This document shows, one piece after another, positions 21,864 through 28,032 of a stretch of 37,926 bases of DNA (position 1 is the stretch's first letter; each line of letters begins with the position of its first letter). The translations under genes and the position numbers were made by a program. The notes beneath the pieces were generated by a model. It saw nothing but the letters and a program-made list of their open reading frames with translations. It did not search any database and had not been told where the DNA came from. Origin of the DNA: a virus (Duplodnaviria > Caudoviricetes); IMG/VR virus record IMGVR_UViG_3300043442_000982, positions 1-37,926 of that record; one strand, given 5' to 3'.

Positions 21864-22009
21864 CGGATGACCCACGCTTTCGGGCAATCTGGACGCAGTT
21901 GGAGAAGCTGTGGAAGACGCAGGACACCGGGACGCCAGAAGACGTTGAGCGCGAGCACACCATCCTCACCACCCTTGTCGCCGAGTGGCAAAAACACAAT
22001 GAGCCATAA
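21860..22009 (+). CDS. Small hypothetical protein (49 aa, not in ORF track)
   Basis: GTGA overlap; MTDDPRFRAIWTQLEKLWKTQD...; fills the gap between neighbours. Confidence 0.5.
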   Translation: MTDDPRFRAIWTQLEKLWKTQDTGTPEDVEREHTILTTLVAEWQKHNEP

Positions 22010-22553
22010 CATCGACCTCCCCCACCATCGCTACGTCTGGGTGATCGAGAAGGCGGTCTATCGCAAGGGCTCGCAGGAGAAGGCAATCCCCGCGGTCTGG
22101 TGGGGGATCAGTGCCACGCCCGGCCGGATGTTCGGGTGTCACGTCCTCCTCGAGTCCGGCGCGATGGTCGTCGATCTCCCGCTCCACGCGCTCCGCCACG
22201 AGCCCGATGCGACGCACTACGTCCTGCCGGAGCTCGCGCAACGCTGGGACGCCTACGGCTGGGACATCGAGGCGCACCAGCCTGCCTATCTCTCGGGGCT
22301 CGACTGCCAAGTGCTGGACCCCACGCACAAGCACGTCGCAGGCACGGGCAATCTCTGGTTCTTCCTCGATCACGTCGGGGACGGCTACTCGTTCGAGCCC
22401 GGCCAGCACAAGCACCACTGGATCGTCGCGATGCACGAGGGCCACTTCGACTGCGTCCCGCAGGATATGCTCTTGATCAAGGAGGCCAGCTTCACCGTGC
22501 TGGATGGCATCCCGCCTGTCACGCGGCAAACGAAAATCTGGAGCTGTGAATGA
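21999..22553 (+). CDS. Conserved phage hypothetical protein (His-rich)
   Basis: HVLLESGAM...LPLHAL...QRWD...FLDH...QHKHH; resembles a widespread phage family of unknown function. Confidence 0.65.
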   Translation: MSHNIDLPHHRYVWVIEKAVYRKGSQEKAIPAVWWGISATPGRMFGCHVLLESGAMVVDLPLHALRHEPDATHYVLPELAQRWDAYGWDIEAHQPAYLSGLDCQVLDPTHKHVAGTGNLWFFLDHVGDGYSFEPGQHKHHWIVAMHEGHFDCVPQDMLLIKEASFTVLDGIPPVTRQTKIWSCE

Positions 22554-23854
22554 GCGAGCCTGCGATCGACGCCACCCTCTCCGATCACGAGCTCTTGACC
22601 GTGATCGCCGCGGCGTATGACAAGCACCAATGGGCGACCGTCGTCGAGCTCACCGATGCGTGGCTCGAGAGCCGCGGCACGATGCCGCCGGGGGCCTGCC
22701 ACTTCCGATCGGCTGGCCTGCAGGGGCTCGGGGAGTATGAGGCCGCGCTCGCGTGGGGTGGGCTGGCCTGCAAGGTCACGCCGCTATCGACCAAGCCGAA
22801 GGAGGCCGAGCGGACGATGTTCGTCTCCACGCGGATCGGGATGGGGATGTGCCTCGGTCGGCTCGGCCAGTGGGACGACGCGCTCCGGTTCTTCCGGGCC
22901 GCGCTCCGCGTCCCGACCAAGGACCCCTACGTCGCCGTCGCGCAGGCGCACTTGCGGCTCGCGATCACCGACTCGTGGAAGAAGGCGTGGCGCGAGCACG
23001 AGCAACGGATCGGCACCGATCGCTCGCCCGTCCTGCCCAACATCCCCGAGTGGGACGGCAAGCCGACCGACGGCCCGGTCGTGGTCCTGCACGAGCAGGG
23101 GATCGGCGACGCGGTGCTCTTCGCTCGCTGGTTGCCGTGGATCGCAGAGCGCTCGGGTCACCCCGTGATCTGGGCCGGCCCGAAGTTCCTGCACCGCTGG
23201 ATCGCGGCGATCCCCGGCGTTGGGTCCGTCGTGCCGCCAGAAGCCGCTCTGCTCGAGAAAGTCGGGGAGGGGGCGACCGATGTCCGCCTCGTCCTCGGAT
23301 CGTGCGTCACGCGGGCAATGACGGCCCCCTACCTGCACGGCACGACCCGGAAGACGATCCCCGCACCCGCCGCCCCGCCGCTCGAGAAGCCTGCCCGCCG
23401 TGGGCCGATGCGGATCGGGGTATGCTGGGCTGGGGCCGCGTCCGGGCATCACGACTTCGAGCGCTCGATCCCCACCGAGGACTTCGCCCTGCTGTGGGAG
23501 GGGGACCTGCCTGTCGAGTGGGTCAGCCTGCAGTATGCCACCGAGCCGCCGGAGGGTGCGCCCTTCCCCGCGATGCCGACGGGGGACGTGTACGCGACCG
23601 CGGAGATCGTCCGCTCCTGCGATCTCGTCGTGACGGTGGATACGAGCATCCTGCATATCGCGGGGAGCCTCGGGGTCCCGACGCTCTGCCTCACGCCAAC
23701 CACGCCTGACTGGCGCTACCCGCACTGGCCGGATGGGGACTCGACCCCGTGGTATCCCTCGGTCTCGTTGATTCGACGCGACAACGCCCGAGCGACCGCG
23801 GATCAAGTCCGCACCGCCCGGGCGTTGGTGGAGATGCTCCTGCAGTCCCGCTAA
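22550..23854 (+). CDS. TPR-repeat glycosyltransferase (GT9-like, GT-B fold)
   Basis: TPR-like N-terminus followed by HEQGIGD, RIGVCWAG, VSLQY, DLVVTVDTSILHIAGSLGVP, DWR, PWYPSV. Confidence 0.85.
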   Translation: MSEPAIDATLSDHELLTVIAAAYDKHQWATVVELTDAWLESRGTMPPGACHFRSAGLQGLGEYEAALAWGGLACKVTPLSTKPKEAERTMFVSTRIGMGMCLGRLGQWDDALRFFRAALRVPTKDPYVAVAQAHLRLAITDSWKKAWREHEQRIGTDRSPVLPNIPEWDGKPTDGPVVVLHEQGIGDAVLFARWLPWIAERSGHPVIWAGPKFLHRWIAAIPGVGSVVPPEAALLEKVGEGATDVRLVLGSCVTRAMTAPYLHGTTRKTIPAPAAPPLEKPARRGPMRIGVCWAGAASGHHDFERSIPTEDFALLWEGDLPVEWVSLQYATEPPEGAPFPAMPTGDVYATAEIVRSCDLVVTVDTSILHIAGSLGVPTLCLTPTTPDWRYPHWPDGDSTPWYPSVSLIRRDNARATADQVRTARALVEMLLQSR

Positions 23855-23858
23855 CCGC

Positions 23859-23929
23859 TCCCCTCTCGTCTAACGGCAGGACCCCGCACTTTGGATGCGG
23901 TAGTCGTGGTTCGAATCCACGGGGGGGAA
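23859..23929 (+). tRNA. tRNA-Gln (anticodon TTG), no encoded CCA
   Basis: Acceptor TCCCCTC/GGGGGGA; D arm GTC-TAACGGCAG-GAC; anticodon arm CCGCA-CT-TTG-GA-TGCGG; T arm CGTGG-TTCGAAT-CCACG. Confidence 0.93.
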
Positions 23930-23942
23930 GTACAACCCAGTC

Positions 23943-24164
23943 CTACTTCCGGCGTCGCGCCTGTCGTGCCGCCTGCTTCGCTCGCCGATCGGCCTCGACC
24001 GCCAGCTTGACCGCCTGCAGGAAGGCCGTGCCGTAGGGCAGGAGGAAGCCCGATCGGCGGCGGGGTTCCCGGAGGATGATCCCCTCCGGGGTCAGGGTGG
24101 CGACTAGGGTCTCGCCGCGGAGCGTGGTCACCTTGCGGGTGACGTTGCGGGTGAGCTCGGTCAC
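23943..24164 (-). CDS. Small basic hypothetical protein
   Basis: GGAGG SD; GTGA overlap; last gene of the leftward operon. Confidence 0.65.
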   Translation of the reverse strand: MTELTRNVTRKVTTLRGETLVATLTPEGIILREPRRRSGFLLPYGTAFLQAVKLAVEADRRAKQAARQARRRK

Positions 24165-24418
24165 TGGGCGATCCTCCGGCGGCGGGCCAGCTTCCGTTTC
24201 CAGCGCCGGACCATTGCCTCGTGGCCATCCTTCGCCTCGTCCTCGGTGTCGTACCCGGCGGCATCCAGCTCGCTGAAGTCCGTGATCCGGTAGCCATCGG
24301 CCGGGAAGACCTTGGTCTCGTAGCTTCGGTTCCAGTTGAGCGGGTACGGGATGCTGATCGTGCTGACGACGTGTCCCGGCACCGCGGTGTGAAGGCTCAG
24401 CTCGGTCGCGTTACGCAT
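24161..24418 (-). CDS. Small phage protein
   Basis: VVST...YETKVF...YDTEDEAKDGHEAMV pattern; GGAGG SD. Confidence 0.65.
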   Translation of the reverse strand: MRNATELSLHTAVPGHVVSTISIPYPLNWNRSYETKVFPADGYRITDFSELDAAGYDTEDEAKDGHEAMVRRWKRKLARRRRIAQ

Positions 24419-24421
24419 CGC

Positions 24422-24622
24422 TCAGGCCTCCTGCGGGATGGTGGTGATCGGCCGCTCGATGAGCCCGGCCTCGAGCAGTGCGCTGGCGGTGCGGCCGTAG
24501 TGCCCCTGCAGGCACCACGCGAGCCCGGAGTCCACCAGCCGCTGGAACACGTCCAGCACCTCGTCCTGCGTCAGCTCGCCCTGCTCGTAGGCGATCAGCT
24601 CGTCTAGTTCCACGTTCAACAT
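24422..24622 (-). CDS. Small phage protein (DUF7417-like)
   Basis: IAYEQGEL...[22 protein letters not shown]; family name recalled, not searched. Confidence 0.65.
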
Positions 24623-24648
24623 TCCAGCCCCCTGTGTGTCGGCATTCT

Positions 24649-24709
24649 GGCCTCGTCAGTCGCGGCACTCACCGCGAGACGCCCCCGTCGTGCTGGGGAC
24701 GTTTCGGCC
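24649..24709 (-). ncRNA. Hammerhead ribozyme type II (HH-A)
   Basis: Minus strand: GGCC GAAAC GUCCCC-agcacgac-GGGGGC GUC^ UCGCGG-ugagug-CCGCGA CUGACGA GGCC. Predicted cut between 24678 and 24677. Confidence 0.92.
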
Positions 24710-24712
24710 TGC

Positions 24713-25087
24713 TCAGGCGGCGATCATCGGCAGGGTCATCTTCCCCGTCGCGAGGAAGTCCAGCCGGACCTGCGTGTACTCGATCGAGTTGTCCCAGAGC
24801 AGGCGCAGGAACTGGGTCCGGGTCCGGCGCACGGCGTTGGTCTTGAGCCCGACGAACAGGTGCAGGCTCTTCCAGAGGTAGATCTCGGTGCGGCCATCCG
24901 CCGAGTAGCGGGTCGCGCCGTTGATCTCTTCCCAGAGCCGGGTGCGGTGGATCGCCTCGGCGAGGTTCTTCTCCGTGATCGCGGGGATCCCGATGACCAT
25001 CGAGTTCCAGATGGCCCGCTCCAGATCCTTGGCGTACTGCTCGCGGATTTTGGCGGGGACCTTCTCGGCGTTCCAGTTGAGCGACAT
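24713..25087 (-). CDS. Hypothetical protein (124 aa) flanked by two hammerheads
   Basis: CACACAGGGAGG leader; MSLNWN...VIGIPAITEKNLAEAIHR...LFVGLKTN. Confidence 0.75.
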   Translation of the reverse strand: MSLNWNAEKVPAKIREQYAKDLERAIWNSMVIGIPAITEKNLAEAIHRTRLWEEINGATRYSADGRTEIYLWKSLHLFVGLKTNAVRRTRTQFLRLLWDNSIEYTQVRLDFLATGKMTLPMIAA

Positions 25088-25117
25088 ACCTACCTCCCTG
25101 TGTGTGTGAGACGTGCT

Positions 25118-25169
25118 GGCCTCGTCAATCTGGGCCTAACCCAGAGACCGCCCGAAGGCGGTTTCGGCC
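25118..25169 (-). ncRNA. Hammerhead ribozyme type II, C3U core variant (HH-B)
   Basis: Minus strand: GGCC GAAAC CGCC-uucg-GGCG GUC^ UCUGGG-uuagg-CCCAGA UUGACGA GGCC. Predicted cut between 25146 and 25145. Confidence 0.85.
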
Positions 25170-25173
25170 TGTC

Positions 25174-25371
25174 TTACAATTCGGTCACCGCAACCCTGTA
25201 CCCAAAGGCATTGCGCCCGTACTCATCCACGCCATCCGACTCAATGTGTTCGACAAGGTGCTCTACAAACTCCTCCGGCGTCTCCCAGTTCCACTGAAAG
25301 TTGGGATACTTGTCGGCGATATCGGAGTCAACGGATATCGTGAGGCGAAAGGTCTTCGTCGTGCTGGCCAT
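25174..25371 (-). CDS. Small acidic protein (65 aa) flanked by two hammerheads
   Basis: CACACAGGGAG leader; MASTTKTFRL...YPNFQWNWETPEEF. Confidence 0.7.
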   Translation of the reverse strand: MASTTKTFRLTISVDSDIADKYPNFQWNWETPEEFVEHLVEHIESDGVDEYGRNAFGYRVAVTEL

Positions 25372-25408
25372 TGTCTGCTCCCTGTGTGTGGTGTGTGTGA
25401 GACGTGCT

Positions 25409-25460
25409 GGCCTCGTCAGTCACCGCGTTACGGTGAGACGCCCCGGAGGGCGTTTCGGCC
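25409..25460 (-). ncRNA. Hammerhead ribozyme type II (HH-C)
   Basis: Minus strand: GGCC GAAAC GCCC-uccg-GGGC GUC^ UCACCG-uaacg-CGGUGA CUGACGA GGCC. Predicted cut between 25437 and 25436. Confidence 0.92.
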
Positions 25461-25462
25461 TG

Positions 25463-25990
25463 TCAGTCGGTGACGCAGGGCACCACCACCACCTGCGTCC
25501 AGTACTTGGCGTCCTTGGCCTGCTCCTTCCGGGCCAGCGCCTCGCTGTGGTGGAAGCTCGCCCCCTCACGGGGCCGATCGATCACCTCGGCGCGGAGCTT
25601 GTTGGCCCGATCCTGCGAGTTGCTGGCCCAGCGACGGTAGTTCGCGGCCACCTGAGCGTGGGTCTCGTTGTCGCGGGTCGCGTGGTAGAGGATCGAGTCC
25701 CACTTGGTGCGGACCCCAGCCTCATACTCGGCCCACGAGAAGTGACTGCGCGGCTTCGGCTGGCGAAGGCGGTGCGTCGCGTCCGGGGTCGTCCCCGTCT
25801 CGAGGAAGGTGGCGATCTCGTGGTACTGCGCCGCCAGCTTCTCTTCATACTTGGCATCAGCCTCAGACCGCTGGCGCTGGGCCTCGATGCTCTCGGAGCA
25901 GATCACCGCGAAGGTGTACTGGCGCTCCGACTTGCGGGTGAACTTCTTGCCAGTGAGGGGCGAGACAGCGACGAAGGTGGTCTTAGACAT
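25463..25990 (-). CDS. Hypothetical protein (175 aa), first gene of the leftward operon
   Basis: CACACAGGGAG leader; MSKTTFVAVSPLTGKKFTRKSERQYTFAV. Confidence 0.75.
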   Translation of the reverse strand: MSKTTFVAVSPLTGKKFTRKSERQYTFAVICSESIEAQRQRSEADAKYEEKLAAQYHEIATFLETGTTPDATHRLRQPKPRSHFSWAEYEAGVRTKWDSILYHATRDNETHAQVAANYRRWASNSQDRANKLRAEVIDRPREGASFHHSEALARKEQAKDAKYWTQVVVVPCVTD

Positions 25991-26143
25991 CTTGAAGCTC
26001 CCTGTGTGTGAGTGTCGTACAGCGTCGTGCTGTACAGGTGAGACGTTAAGAAACCCCCCGTCGTGCCGCCAGACCTATAACGCAATCTTAATCAACTCTT
26101 AATCTTTCTTTCGGGATCTGTTCGGTATTGGCCCGATCGCTCG

Positions 26144-26176
26144 CTTGCGTCTCGCTCTAGTTCGGTATATGTTCGG
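26144..26176 (+). promoter_or_regulatory. Promoter of the terminase operon (probably leaderless)
   Basis: cTTGCGT-17-TATGTT, 8 nt before the ATG at 26182; no SD. Confidence 0.55.
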
Positions 26177-26181
26177 CCCAT

Positions 26182-26583
26182 ATGACCAAGCCGCGGAAAT
26201 CCACAGGCGGTCAGCCGATCCCGGAAGCGGAGAAGCTCCGCATCTTCACCGCCATCTGCGACGCCGTCGCTCACGGCGTTCTCGTGCGCGATGCCGCGAA
26301 AGAATACGGGATCAACCCGGCGACGATCTGGAAGTGGGCCGCGGAAGACGACGTGCTGGGCAAGCTCTACGCACACGCGAAACATCAAGCGGCCGACGCG
26401 CTCGCCGAGGAAGCGATCCGCATCGCGCTCGAGACGACCAACGAGACCTACTCCGCGGATCGGCTGAAGGTGGACACGCTGAAGTGGGCCGCGGCCAAGC
26501 GCAGGCCGAAGGAGTACGGCGAGCGGCAGGCGATCGAGAACAGCGGCGAGCAGACGCTGAACGTCGTGATCCGCTCGGAGTAA
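26182..26583 (+). CDS. terS: Terminase small subunit
   Basis: HTH (GINPATIWKW), ADALAEE, DRLKVDTLKW...PKEYGER; directly upstream of terL. Confidence 0.85.
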   Translation: MTKPRKSTGGQPIPEAEKLRIFTAICDAVAHGVLVRDAAKEYGINPATIWKWAAEDDVLGKLYAHAKHQAADALAEEAIRIALETTNETYSADRLKVDTLKWAAAKRRPKEYGERQAIENSGEQTLNVVIRSE

Positions 26584-26592
26584 GCCGCGGCG

Positions 26593-28032
26593 GTGTCCAC
26601 GCTCTTCCTGCCTGCGGCACTCCCCCACCAGCGCGAAGTCCTCGATGCGCCCGATCGGTTCAAGGTCTGGCGGGCCGGACGCCGAACGGGCAAGTCTCGA
26701 GCGGCTCTGATCGCCGCCCTGCTGGGCCACGGCAAGGGGAAGCACGTCGGCGCACTCCACGGCGGGAACATCGTCTGGCTCACCCCCGACTACCCGCAGT
26801 CTCGAGCGATCTGGCGCGAAGAGATCAAGCCGCGGCTGGCTGGCCTGCCGGGCGTCGCCCTGCACGAGACCGATCGCCGCGTCGCATTCGCGGGGCTGGG
26901 CTCCCTCGAGCTCCGCTCTGCCGAAAGCATCGACAACCTCCGCGGCCGATCGCTCGATGGCGTCGTGATTGACGAGGCCGCGTATCTCGATCTCGAGTAC
27001 GCGCTGTCTGCTGTCGTGCTCCCTGCCCTGCTCGACAAGGGCGGCTGGCTGATCGTCGTCTCCACGCCCTCCGCAGGCTGGGATGGCAACGCGGCACGAC
27101 AGACGCCCAGCTACTTCAACCGACTCTGCCTGCAGGTGGACGCTGGCCGCGACGGCTGGCGGCACTGGCACCACCCGACCGAGTCCAACCCGAAGCTCAG
27201 CCAGCACGACATCCAGCTTCTCCGCGCCGAGTACCCCGCTGGATCGGCCCACGCTCAGCAGGAGCTCGACGCCAGCCTCACCGCCAGCGGGGCCAGCTTC
27301 TACCCCGAGCTCGCCAGCCTCGAGGACTACGTCGTGCCGCGGGACCATCTGCCGACCTACCTGCCCGACTGGTGGCAGGCGTGGTCCGGCTACGACTGGG
27401 GCTATGCCCACCCCGCGGTCTGGGTGCCTGTCGTAGACGACGGCCGTCACGTCTACGTCTTGGACGCGCTCTACCTGCACCGCGAGCAGGACCACGAGCA
27501 GGCGGCCTCGATCCGCGCCCAGCTCGCCCTGCCCGGCAACGAGGGCCGCGTCCCATCGGCCTGCGCTAAGCGGGTCTATGCGGGGCACGACGCCTTCGCG
27601 ATGCGGCAGGCCCACACGGCCAGCCCCGAGTCCGTAGCCGACATCTTCGACGGCTACGGGCTGGCGCTCTCCAAGGCCAGCATCGACCGCGAGGCGGGGG
27701 CCAAGGTCTTGCGCCGCCTCATCACCAACGACCGCCTGCGGTTCGTGGATACCATCGGCACCCGTCGCCTGCTCCGCGAACTGCAGGGGCTGGTCCCCGA
27801 CCCTAAGCGACCCAACGTGCCGCTCAAGCGGGACGCCGACGAGCGGGGCGAGGGCGGGGACGACGGGGCCGACGCCCTGCGGTACGCGCTGGCCAGCCTG
27901 CCGTACTTGGTCAGCGAGCCTGCCCCGGACCGCGGGATCGGCGAGGAGGGCAAGGACCCCGGCGACTGGACGCTCTACGTCCCCGGCACCGCGGACGATT
28001 ACCGGGACGTGGCAGGTGGGATGGTGCTGTGA
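26593..28032 (+). CDS. terL: Terminase large subunit
   Basis: Walker A AGRRTGKS, Walker B VVIDEAA, coupling motif VSTP, nuclease motifs GYDWG and DDGADALRYA. Confidence 0.93.
   Translation: MSTLFLPAALPHQREVLDAPDRFKVWRAGRRTGKSRAALIAALLGHGKGKHVGALHGGNIVWLTPDYPQSRAIWREEIKPRLAGLPGVALHETDRRVAFAGLGSLELRSAESIDNLRGRSLDGVVIDEAAYLDLEYALSAVVLPALLDKGGWLIVVSTPSAGWDGNAARQTPSYFNRLCLQVDAGRDGWRHWHHPTESNPKLSQHDIQLLRAEYPAGSAHAQQELDASLTASGASFYPELASLEDYVVPRDHLPTYLPDWWQAWSGYDWGYAHPAVWVPVVDDGRHVYVLDALYLHREQDHEQAASIRAQLALPGNEGRVPSACAKRVYAGHDAFAMRQAHTASPESVADIFDGYGLALSKASIDREAGAKVLRRLITNDRLRFVDTIGTRRLLRELQGLVPDPKRPNVPLKRDADERGEGGDDGADALRYALASLPYLVSEPAPDRGIGEEGKDPGDWTLYVPGTADDYRDVAGGMVL

What the first reader, a model, noticed from the sequence alone, without database searches (positions are those of the whole stretch)
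24628..25465. Three type II hammerhead ribozymes punctuating a phage operon, one per spacer
Seen: each of three consecutive minus-strand spacers reads stop codon, CAGGCC-GAAAC, stem III, GUC, stem I, (C/U)UGACGA-GGCCAG, CA-rich leader, SD, ATG. Stems I and III differ in sequence between copies yet stay paired (UCGCGG/CCGCGA, UCUGGG/CCCAGA, UCACCG/CGGUGA; GUCCCC/GGGGGC, CGCC/GGCG, GCCC/GGGC), which is strong covariation. Established: CUGANGA, GAAA and GUC are the hammerhead catalytic core, and hammerheads occur in bacterial and phage DNA. Inference: the polycistronic mRNA cuts itself into gene-sized units without host RNases. Each downstream unit would start with a 5'-OH and a stem I hairpin, and each upstream unit would end with a stem III hairpin and a 2',3'-cyclic phosphate. 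This would act as a natural ribozyme insulator system.
Basis: partly seen in the sequence, partly recalled or inferred. Interest (0 to 1): 0.95.

Follow-up and report, generated by a model that had tools for sequence, protein, structure and literature searches.

The report
Phage hammerheads in swappable gene slots
Three hammerhead RNA motifs, predicted to cut themselves, sit between small genes of an uncultured phage, a layout known since 2011; related phages fill the same gaps with promoter-like sequences, so the ribozymes likely give each gene its own message without a promoter of its own.

Summary
Confirmed. Three type II hammerheads lie on the minus strand, each just after a stop codon and 55-65 nt before an SD-led ATG (3 hits, 0 in 100 shuffles; Rfam RF02276 hits below gathering). 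The operon is divergent from the terminase genes of an uncultured phage. Clustered hammerheads flanking single prophage genes, including triples cut in vitro and in E. coli, were published by Perreault 2011, and this scan noted the layout before on other DNA.

Added here: (1) all three copies belong to a class without an enriched pseudoknot, marked by U1.7 and a flanking A; (2) copy 2 has a rare C3U core change (2 of 253) and may be slow; (3) in 22 related operons, 53 internal slots hold a hammerhead (21) or a PeSL-like sigma70 promoter hairpin (22), never both, and one gene occurs behind either; genes are swapped at these modules.

Most likely the ribozymes are promoter-free makers of gene-sized mRNAs and double as shuffling joints. 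Cleavage was not tested. New member of a known kind.

The parts
26043..26072 (-). Putative operon promoter: weak -35-like hexamer 26072-26067, 18-nt spacer, -10-like TAACGT 26048-26043
   Evidence: Inferred from position: relative L127 has TTGACG-17-TACTCT, and L128/L130/L132/L281 have TTGCGC-17/18-TAGACT, at the same place. The consensus scan found no promoter here.
26017..26035 (-). 5' hairpin of the first leader (7-bp stem, ACGAC loop)
   Evidence: Sequence and fold; relatives have a hairpin at this place.
25463..25990 (-). ORF, 175 aa, no family; first gene, behind a CA-rich leader and SD
   Evidence: homolog at the same slot in L284; replaced by an unrelated 71-aa ORF in L124.
25409..25461 (-). 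Hammerhead 1 (type II): flanking A 25461, stem II 25460-25457/25412-25409, GAAA, stem III 25452-25439, cut 25437/25436, stem I hairpin 25436-25420 with U1.7, core CUGACGA 25419-25413
   Evidence: Predicted fold depends on the flanks.
25372..25408 (-). CA-rich leader with SD (AGGGAG)
   Evidence: repeat families D1, D3, D5.
25174..25371 (-). ORF, 65 aa, weak match to phrog_18289 (unknown function)
   Evidence: E 1.8e-4. Absent from the other 21 operons compared; bounded by hammerheads 1 and 2, which are 81% identical over 74 nt.
25118..25170 (-). Hammerhead 2 (type II), cut 25146/25145; core variant UUGACGA (C3U)
25088..25117 (-). CA-rich leader with SD (AGGGAGG)
24713..25087 (-). ORF, 124 aa, no family; its homologs in relatives are all led by a hammerhead
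   Evidence: six-member cluster.
24649..24710 (-). Hammerhead 3 (type II), cut 24678/24677; stem III with 8-nt loop
24623..24648 (-). Leader with SD (AGGGGG)
24422..24622 (-). ORF, 66 aa, DUF7417 / phrog_3908 (unknown function)
   Evidence: E 4.8e-20; E 2.4e-22.
24161..24418 (-). ORF, 85 aa, no family; closely coupled to the 66-aa ORF
23943..24164 (-). ORF, 73 aa, no family; last gene of the operon
23859..23929 (+). tRNA-Gln(UUG), convergent with the end of the operon
26182..28032 (+). Terminase small and large subunit genes, divergent from the operon (context)
   Evidence: PHROGs.

Best explanation
These are three type II hammerhead motifs, predicted to self-cleave, in the hypervariable and likely early operon of a tailed phage, and they likely cut one long transcript into gene-sized mRNAs, doing the job that an internal promoter plus hairpin is predicted to do at the same slots in related phages. 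Steps. (1, shown) Each slot reads stop codon, ribozyme, CA-rich leader, SD, ATG. (2, inferred from consensus and from tested homologs) Once the last GGCC is transcribed the core folds, helped by the U1.7-A contact, and cuts after GUC. (3, established chemistry) The upstream piece ends about 25-35 nt after its stop codon in the stem III hairpin and a 2',3'-cyclic phosphate; the downstream piece starts with a 5'-OH directly on the stem I hairpin. (4, inferred) Such ends slow end-dependent decay, so each cargo gene gets its own mRNA while staying under one upstream promoter. (5, shown by comparison) The repeated modules are the places where relatives exchange cargo genes. Copy 2 probably cuts more slowly than copies 1 and 3.
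For: Consensus core and three stems in all copies, absent from shuffles. 107 of 123 viral loci found by sequence pattern alone also form the stems. Triple arrangements of this kind cleave in vitro and in E. coli (Perreault 2011, section 6). An upstream ORF stops within -12..+3 nt of stem II in 133 of 156 phage hammerheads with enough flank, against 17.0 +/- 4.2 with shuffled upstream DNA. In 22 related operons, 53 internal slots hold a hammerhead (21), a TTGACA-17/18-TAGTCT/TAGTAT promoter hairpin (22; 0.08 expected by chance), another module (2), a half ribozyme (1) or nothing (7); none holds both. The same 237-aa gene is led by the promoter module in L130, a hammerhead in L132 and L291, and the main promoter in L281. 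L124 (terL 99% identical) shares window 25996-26592 and 24530-25172 and replaces what lies between. 74 of 122 homology ends fall in spacers, which are 23.6% of the sequence. A 5'-OH from ribozyme cleavage slows end-dependent decay (passage in 10.1101/2020.07.22.216051).
Against: Cleavage was not measured. All copies score under Rfam's gathering score. Stem II is only 4 bp, and its predicted pairing falls from 0.99 to 0.00-0.02 in copies 1 and 3 with some flank lengths. Copy 2 has C3U, which breaks the C3-G8 pair described in Perreault section 8. The window's own promoter is a weak match and no terminator was found. The promoter modules are sequence matches, not tested. The 22 operons are related and not independent. 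Shared module sequence itself favours homology ends in spacers. In the one well-understood bacterial case, glmS, cleavage leads to decay, not stability. The host and its RNases are unknown.
Confidence: 0.7

Rival explanations
1. Cleavage lowers expression: the 5'-OH pieces are degraded faster, as after glmS cleavage, so the ribozymes act as a timer or polarity device that limits host-toxic early genes.
For: glmS cleavage is followed by degradation (PMC6765202 section 13). PeSL hairpins attenuate read-through (PMC2839356 section 14). RNase J acting on the glmS product is recalled, from no call.
Against: The same gene sits behind a consensus promoter in a sister phage, which points to wanted expression. 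Each cut leaves a hairpin at the very 5' end and an intact SD leader.
Confidence: 0.13
2. The modules are kept mainly as DNA recombination joints for shuffling cargo genes, and RNA cleavage is incidental.
For: Breakpoints sit at the modules. Copy 2 carries a core change. Half or chimeric ribozymes occur in L285 and L136.
Against: Compensatory stem changes reduce DNA identity while keeping the RNA fold. In the clade, 16 of 17 distinct copies keep a perfect core and 17 of 17 keep U1.7 and the flanking A.
Confidence: 0.08
3. Excised units are ligated into circular or reshuffled mRNAs, because the identical GGCC strands of neighbouring copies could rebuild a hammerhead around each gene.
For: Stem II is invariant in the three copies, so cross-pairing is formally possible.
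Against: Predicted cross-pairing is 0.000 and 0.025 for the two internal units. Other clusters mix different stem II sequences (L037, L065, L071). Perreault et al. looked for circles and spliced products and found none.
Confidence: 0.04
4. Cleavage is partial or gated by translation: a ribosome stopping 2-4 nt upstream of stem II, or competing folds, decides whether a copy cuts, giving a mix of long and short messages. This can hold together with the best explanation.
For: Stop codons abut or overlap the ribozyme family-wide. The last codons of the 175-aa ORF can pair with the stem I/core strand of copy 1, and flanks weaken stem II of copy 3.
Against: Family-wide, real upstream sequence disturbs the fold no more than shuffled sequence (73 of 135 against 77.2 expected). 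Tight packing alone explains the adjacency.
Confidence: 0.2

Closest known systems
Clustered hammerheads flanking single genes in prophages (Clostridium scindens, Azorhizobium caulinodans, Agrobacterium tumefaciens triples; Perreault et al. 2011, PMC3088659)
   Same: Three hammerheads around small variable phage genes; same proposed processing into single-gene mRNAs; an anti-restriction gene in the context (ardA there; ArdC in relative L127).
   Different: Here all three are type II of the U1.7/A class with no enriched pseudoknot. The sections read do not describe exchange with promoter modules or stop-codon adjacency; the supplements were not opened.
Type II hammerhead ribozyme, Rfam RF02276
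   Same: Full-length match to the model (1-66/66); core GAAA, GUC and CUGANGA; stems I and III closed, stem II open.
   Different: Below gathering score; 4-bp stem II and 17-18-nt stem I hairpin; no clear loop I-tail pseudoknot; copy 2 has C3U.
PeSL promoter-stem-loop cassettes of T4-type phages RB49/phi1 (Arbiol et al. 2010, PMC2839356)
   Same: Stop codon, repeated regulatory module, SD, start codon, in a hyperplastic early region; genes are exchanged at the modules. The promoter modules of the relatives fit the PeSL description (polyG/polyC hairpin overlapping the -35 box).
   Different: The window's modules have no promoter and would act on RNA. The clade uses both kinds in the same slots.
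U1.7-AL4 trans-Hoogsteen tertiary contact of sTRSV and Schistosoma hammerheads (O'Rourke et al., as described in PMC11875169)
   Same: U seven nt after the cut and an A directly 5' of a 4-bp stem II.
   Different: Here the A is a single-stranded flank of an open stem II, not the end of a GNRA loop. The contact is inferred from co-conservation only.
RNase III processing of the T7 early transcript; RiboJ-type ribozyme insulators (both recalled, from no call)
   Same: A polycistronic early RNA cut into gene-sized pieces; a 5'-OH plus hairpin ahead of an RBS.
   Different: No host nuclease is needed here, unlike T7; natural rather than engineered, unlike RiboJ.

Membership tests
Hammerhead ribozyme | Core C3-U-G-A-N-G-A9, G12-A-A-A15, U16.1-H17 | tested here: met
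   Copies 1 and 3 are perfect; copy 2 differs at one position, C3U.
Hammerhead ribozyme | Three stems around the core, kept by compensatory change | tested here: met
   48 of 48 cells paired; 5 of 16 pairs with changes on both sides.
Hammerhead ribozyme | Self-cleavage after H17 | not testable with these tools
   Needs transcription in vitro or end-mapped RNA.
Type II hammerhead (RF02276) | Stems I and III closed by loops, stem II open | tested here: met
Type II hammerhead (RF02276) | Score at or above the gathering threshold (37 bits) | tested here: not met
   29.8, 24.9 and 28.9 bits. Filed under the structural class, not as an Rfam-threshold member.
Type II hammerhead (RF02276) | Loop I - 3' tail pseudoknot (common, not universal, in Perreault 2011) | tested here: not met
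   Longest loop-tail helix is 3 bp in copies 1 and 2 (copy 3 was merged with an identical relative's stem I and not printed). In their class 28 of 135 reach 4 bp, against 18% +/- 3% shuffled; in the other class 73 of 84, against 53%.
Clustered phage hammerheads (Perreault 2011) | Several hammerheads flanking single genes or short blocks, with variable gene identity, in phage DNA | tested here: met
PeSL cassette | Sigma70 promoter within the module | tested here: not met
   None in the window's three spacers; present in 22 slots of relatives.
PeSL cassette | Gene exchange at the repeated modules | tested here: met
PeSL cassette | DNA mini-circles from recombination between modules | not testable with these tools
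   No reads were available to lay on the stretch.

The most novel reading that the evidence does not exclude
In this phage clade the hammerhead and the sigma70 promoter-stem-loop are two alleles of one mobile regulatory cassette. Both start at the upstream stop codon, often with the same ACAGGC, and end in the same CA-rich SD leader. A phage can switch any cargo gene between 'own promoter' and 'cut from the upstream message' by one crossover. The long-loop stem III may itself derive from the promoter hairpin: the -35 word GCTTGAC sits in its loop in L132 and L291, in register with the L130 promoter.
Probability: 0.45. Interest if true: 0.6.

Novelty: new member of a known kind. Interest (0 to 1): 0.35.

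Why it matters
The purpose of bacterial and phage self-cleaving ribozymes is still open (PMC6765202 section 13). The layout itself is known, but this clade offers a natural experiment: the same gene behind a hammerhead, an internal promoter or the main promoter in near-identical phages. That makes 'what does the cut buy' directly testable with natural pairs. The comparison also defines a compact type II class (U1.7 plus flanking A) that Rfam scores below threshold, so standard annotation likely misses many such copies.

Tried and rejected
No RNA holder listed for window 23900-26600, so read ends were not examined. Circular mRNA by cross-pairing of stem II: predicted pairing 0.000 and 0.025. 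A family-wide upstream folding switch: 73 of 135 against 77.2 expected. Internal promoters or terminators in the window's spacers: none. More hammerheads elsewhere in the contig: none by descriptor; the five other loose matches did not pass it. Function of the cargo proteins: nothing in PADLOC; nothing usable in the Atlas for the 124- and 175-aa proteins; only DUF7417 in Pfam. Host: one 7.7-kb contig in a Planctomycetota MAG is too weak; no cultured phage has a close terminase (listed best hits 26-36% identity) or a similar stretch. GCACGACG as an operator: 13 copies in the contig, 4 in this region, and own-genome identity between promoter spacer and stem III in only 3 of 17 rows; not claimed. 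Third module as a twister-sister ribozyme: only a 15-nt hairpin matches (13.6 bits, E 3.2); two pattern scans gave no independent homolog; unresolved. Published rate for the C3U variant: one search, nothing usable.

Full report
Observation. A descriptor that demands the core and three stems finds exactly 3 hits, with cuts at 25437/25436, 25146/25145 and 24678/24677, none on the plus strand, and none in 100 dinucleotide shuffles of the window. Rfam's Hammerhead_II model aligns over its full length at 29.8, 24.9 and 28.9 bits, all under the gathering score of 37. Across the three copies all 48 cells pair, and 5 of 16 pairs change on both sides; stem II never varies. Copy 2 reads UUGACGA. This C3U change occurs in 2 of 253 distinct hammerheads collected, and the matching copy in the closest relative has C3. 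C3 pairs with G8 (Perreault section 8), so copy 2 is probably slower; I found no rate for it.

Context. The window is one 37.9-kb phage contig with terminase, portal, capsid, tail fibre and endolysin genes. The ribozymes sit in a six-gene operon divergent from terS (175, 65, 124, 66, 85 and 73 aa) that ends at a convergent tRNA-Gln. Only the 66-aa protein has a Pfam family, DUF7417. Relative L127 carries an ArdC anti-restriction gene in this operon, which fits an early, host-facing region; 'early' is an inference. The host is unknown. Predicted pieces are about 600, 291 and 468 nt, plus a last piece with three ORFs.

What kind of hammerhead. 107 of the first 123 also form the stems. From 270 sources I kept 219 ribozymes with distinct stem I hairpins. 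They fall into two classes. In 135, position 1.7 is U, and all 135 have A five nt before GAAA, against 31 of the other 84; neither base was in the search patterns. This class has a 17-nt hairpin and a 4-bp stem II, and no excess of loop-tail pseudoknots (28 of 135, against 18% shuffled). The other class has a 22-24-nt hairpin, a 3-bp stem II and pseudoknots in 73 of 84, against 53% shuffled. The patterns fixed GGCC or GCC in stem II, so the class sizes are biased. The window's copies, and all 17 distinct copies matched in its clade, have U1.7 and the A. This matches the U1.7-AL4 Hoogsteen contact described in passages of PMC11875169, which also has a section headed that this U is not essential in its own construct. 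The contact here is inferred. Perreault's Figure S5 and Dataset S1, which I did not open, may already hold this class.

Placement. An upstream ORF of 45 codons or more stops within -12..+3 nt of stem II in 133 of the 156 ribozymes with 600 nt of flank, against 17.0 +/- 4.2 with shuffled upstream DNA; an earlier count gave 132 of 156, against 28 of 624 shifted positions. A downstream ATG was found in 188 of 208, a median of 58 nt after the cut. The window's layout is therefore the usual one.

Relatives. Terminase searches gave close phages at 75-99% terL identity. I examined 32 upstream regions, the window included, and kept 22: 6 were identical to another, 2 had under 1100 nt, one was near-identical to L277 and one had no leader found. 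The operon is hypervariable. L124 (terL 99%) shares window 25996-26592 and 24530-25172; between them, the 175-aa gene, hammerhead 1 and the 65-aa gene are replaced by one unrelated 71-aa ORF. The breakpoints are the first SD leader and the start of hammerhead 2. Over all pairs, 74 of 122 homology ends lie in spacers, which are 23.6% of the sequence; shared module sequence inflates this. Of 53 internal slots, 21 hold a hammerhead (17 distinct), 22 a G/C hairpin with TTGACA, 17-18 nt and TAGTCT or TAGTAT (18 distinct; 0.08 expected in shuffles), 2 a third module, 1 a half ribozyme and 7 none. No slot holds both; 10 operons use both kinds, 6 only hammerheads (the window among them) and 5 only promoters. 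One 237-aa gene is led by the promoter module in L130, by a hammerhead in L132 and L291, and by the main promoter in L281. All the ArdC-like genes with a detected leader have the promoter module, and all homologs of the 124-aa gene have a hammerhead, so most genes keep one type. ACAGGC begins 18 of 22 hammerhead modules and precedes 13 of 24 promoter modules. The promoter modules fit the PeSL description (PMC2839356, abstract and section 14). These operons are related and are not independent events.

Mechanism. Shown: anatomy, placement, interchange with promoter-like modules, gene exchange at the modules. Inferred: cleavage, from consensus and from the tested triples of Perreault et al.. Established chemistry: a cyclic phosphate after the stem III hairpin and a 5'-OH on the stem I hairpin. 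Inferred: these ends slow decay (passage in 10.1101/2020.07.22.216051), so each gene gets its own message under one promoter. Against this: stem II pairing in copies 1 and 3 drops to near zero with some flank lengths, copy 2 has a core change, the window's promoter is a weak match, and glmS shows that cleavage can lead to decay. Circles are unlikely.

Known and new. Perreault et al. 2011 (sections 6, 8 and the first part of 11 read, plus passages) describe hammerheads flanking single prophage genes, test three triples and propose single-gene mRNAs. Reviews repeat this and call the purpose open (PMC6155905 passages; PMC6765202 passages and section 13). PMC4122927 and PMC10939160 were seen as search listings only. 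I did not see the promoter-ribozyme interchange in the listings of searches or in the texts read; the library lacks most subscription papers. Earlier notes of this scan report stop-codon-flush hammerheads and swappable slots in other phages; I reached the PeSL reading before opening them. T7 RNase III processing, RiboJ, RNase J and the LexA box are recalled, from no call.

Verdict. A genuine new member of a known kind, with an informative clade around it. Interest 0.35. The boldest reading, that ribozyme and promoter are alleles of one cassette, has probability 0.45 and would merit 0.6.

Noticed in passing
L277:3047-3165 (-), L300 and L136 (same slot); loci L303-L306: A third spacer module, neither hammerhead nor promoter. 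It holds a hairpin matching positions 32-46 of Rfam twister-sister (13.6 bits, E 3.2). In L136 it is fused behind the 5' half of a hammerhead and leads a gene that is hammerhead-led in six relatives. Possibly a rearranged twister-like ribozyme; only two distinct sequences found.
   Followed up: partly
Loci (for example L004, L008, L192, L233); not in the window: The 3' tail covaries with core position 7: GTCA with C7 in 30 and ATCA with U7 in 8, crossed 0 and 1, among 131 (Fisher p 1.5e-7, not corrected for relatedness). The tail can fold back on the core as a 6-bp hairpin, which could release the product or block re-ligation.
   Followed up: partly
window 26066-26055 and 24693-24682; also 26030 and 25364: Twelve identical bases are shared by the promoter spacer and the stem III loop of hammerhead 3; L132 shares 13 different bases between the same two places. 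Not general in the clade; gene conversion or a protein site.
   Followed up: partly
window 26176-26160 and 26125-26109 (-): CCGAAC-N5-CCGAA direct repeats between the operon and terS, kept in relatives. Could be packaging or regulator sites; the first also reads GAAC-N7-GAAC, recalled as the alphaproteobacterial LexA box.
   Followed up: no
L149-L151 (one 67.6-kb contig) and L165-L167: Much longer arrays: 8 and 5 hammerhead matches within a few kb.
   Followed up: no
L285, about 1100-1177 nt upstream of terL: A decayed hammerhead (3' half only), with leader and SD, lies inside a longer ORF, suggesting gene fusion after loss of the ribozyme.
   Followed up: no
L130/L132/L135/L136 against window 26182-26583: terS is replaced by a different-looking protein in relatives whose terL is 76-77% identical (compared by eye).
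   Followed up: no
window 21867-23854 (+): An ORF matching a PHROG labelled ferredoxin (phrog_3704) next to a TPR / glycosyltransferase-9-like ORF, just before the tRNA-Gln; possibly a modification module.
   Followed up: no
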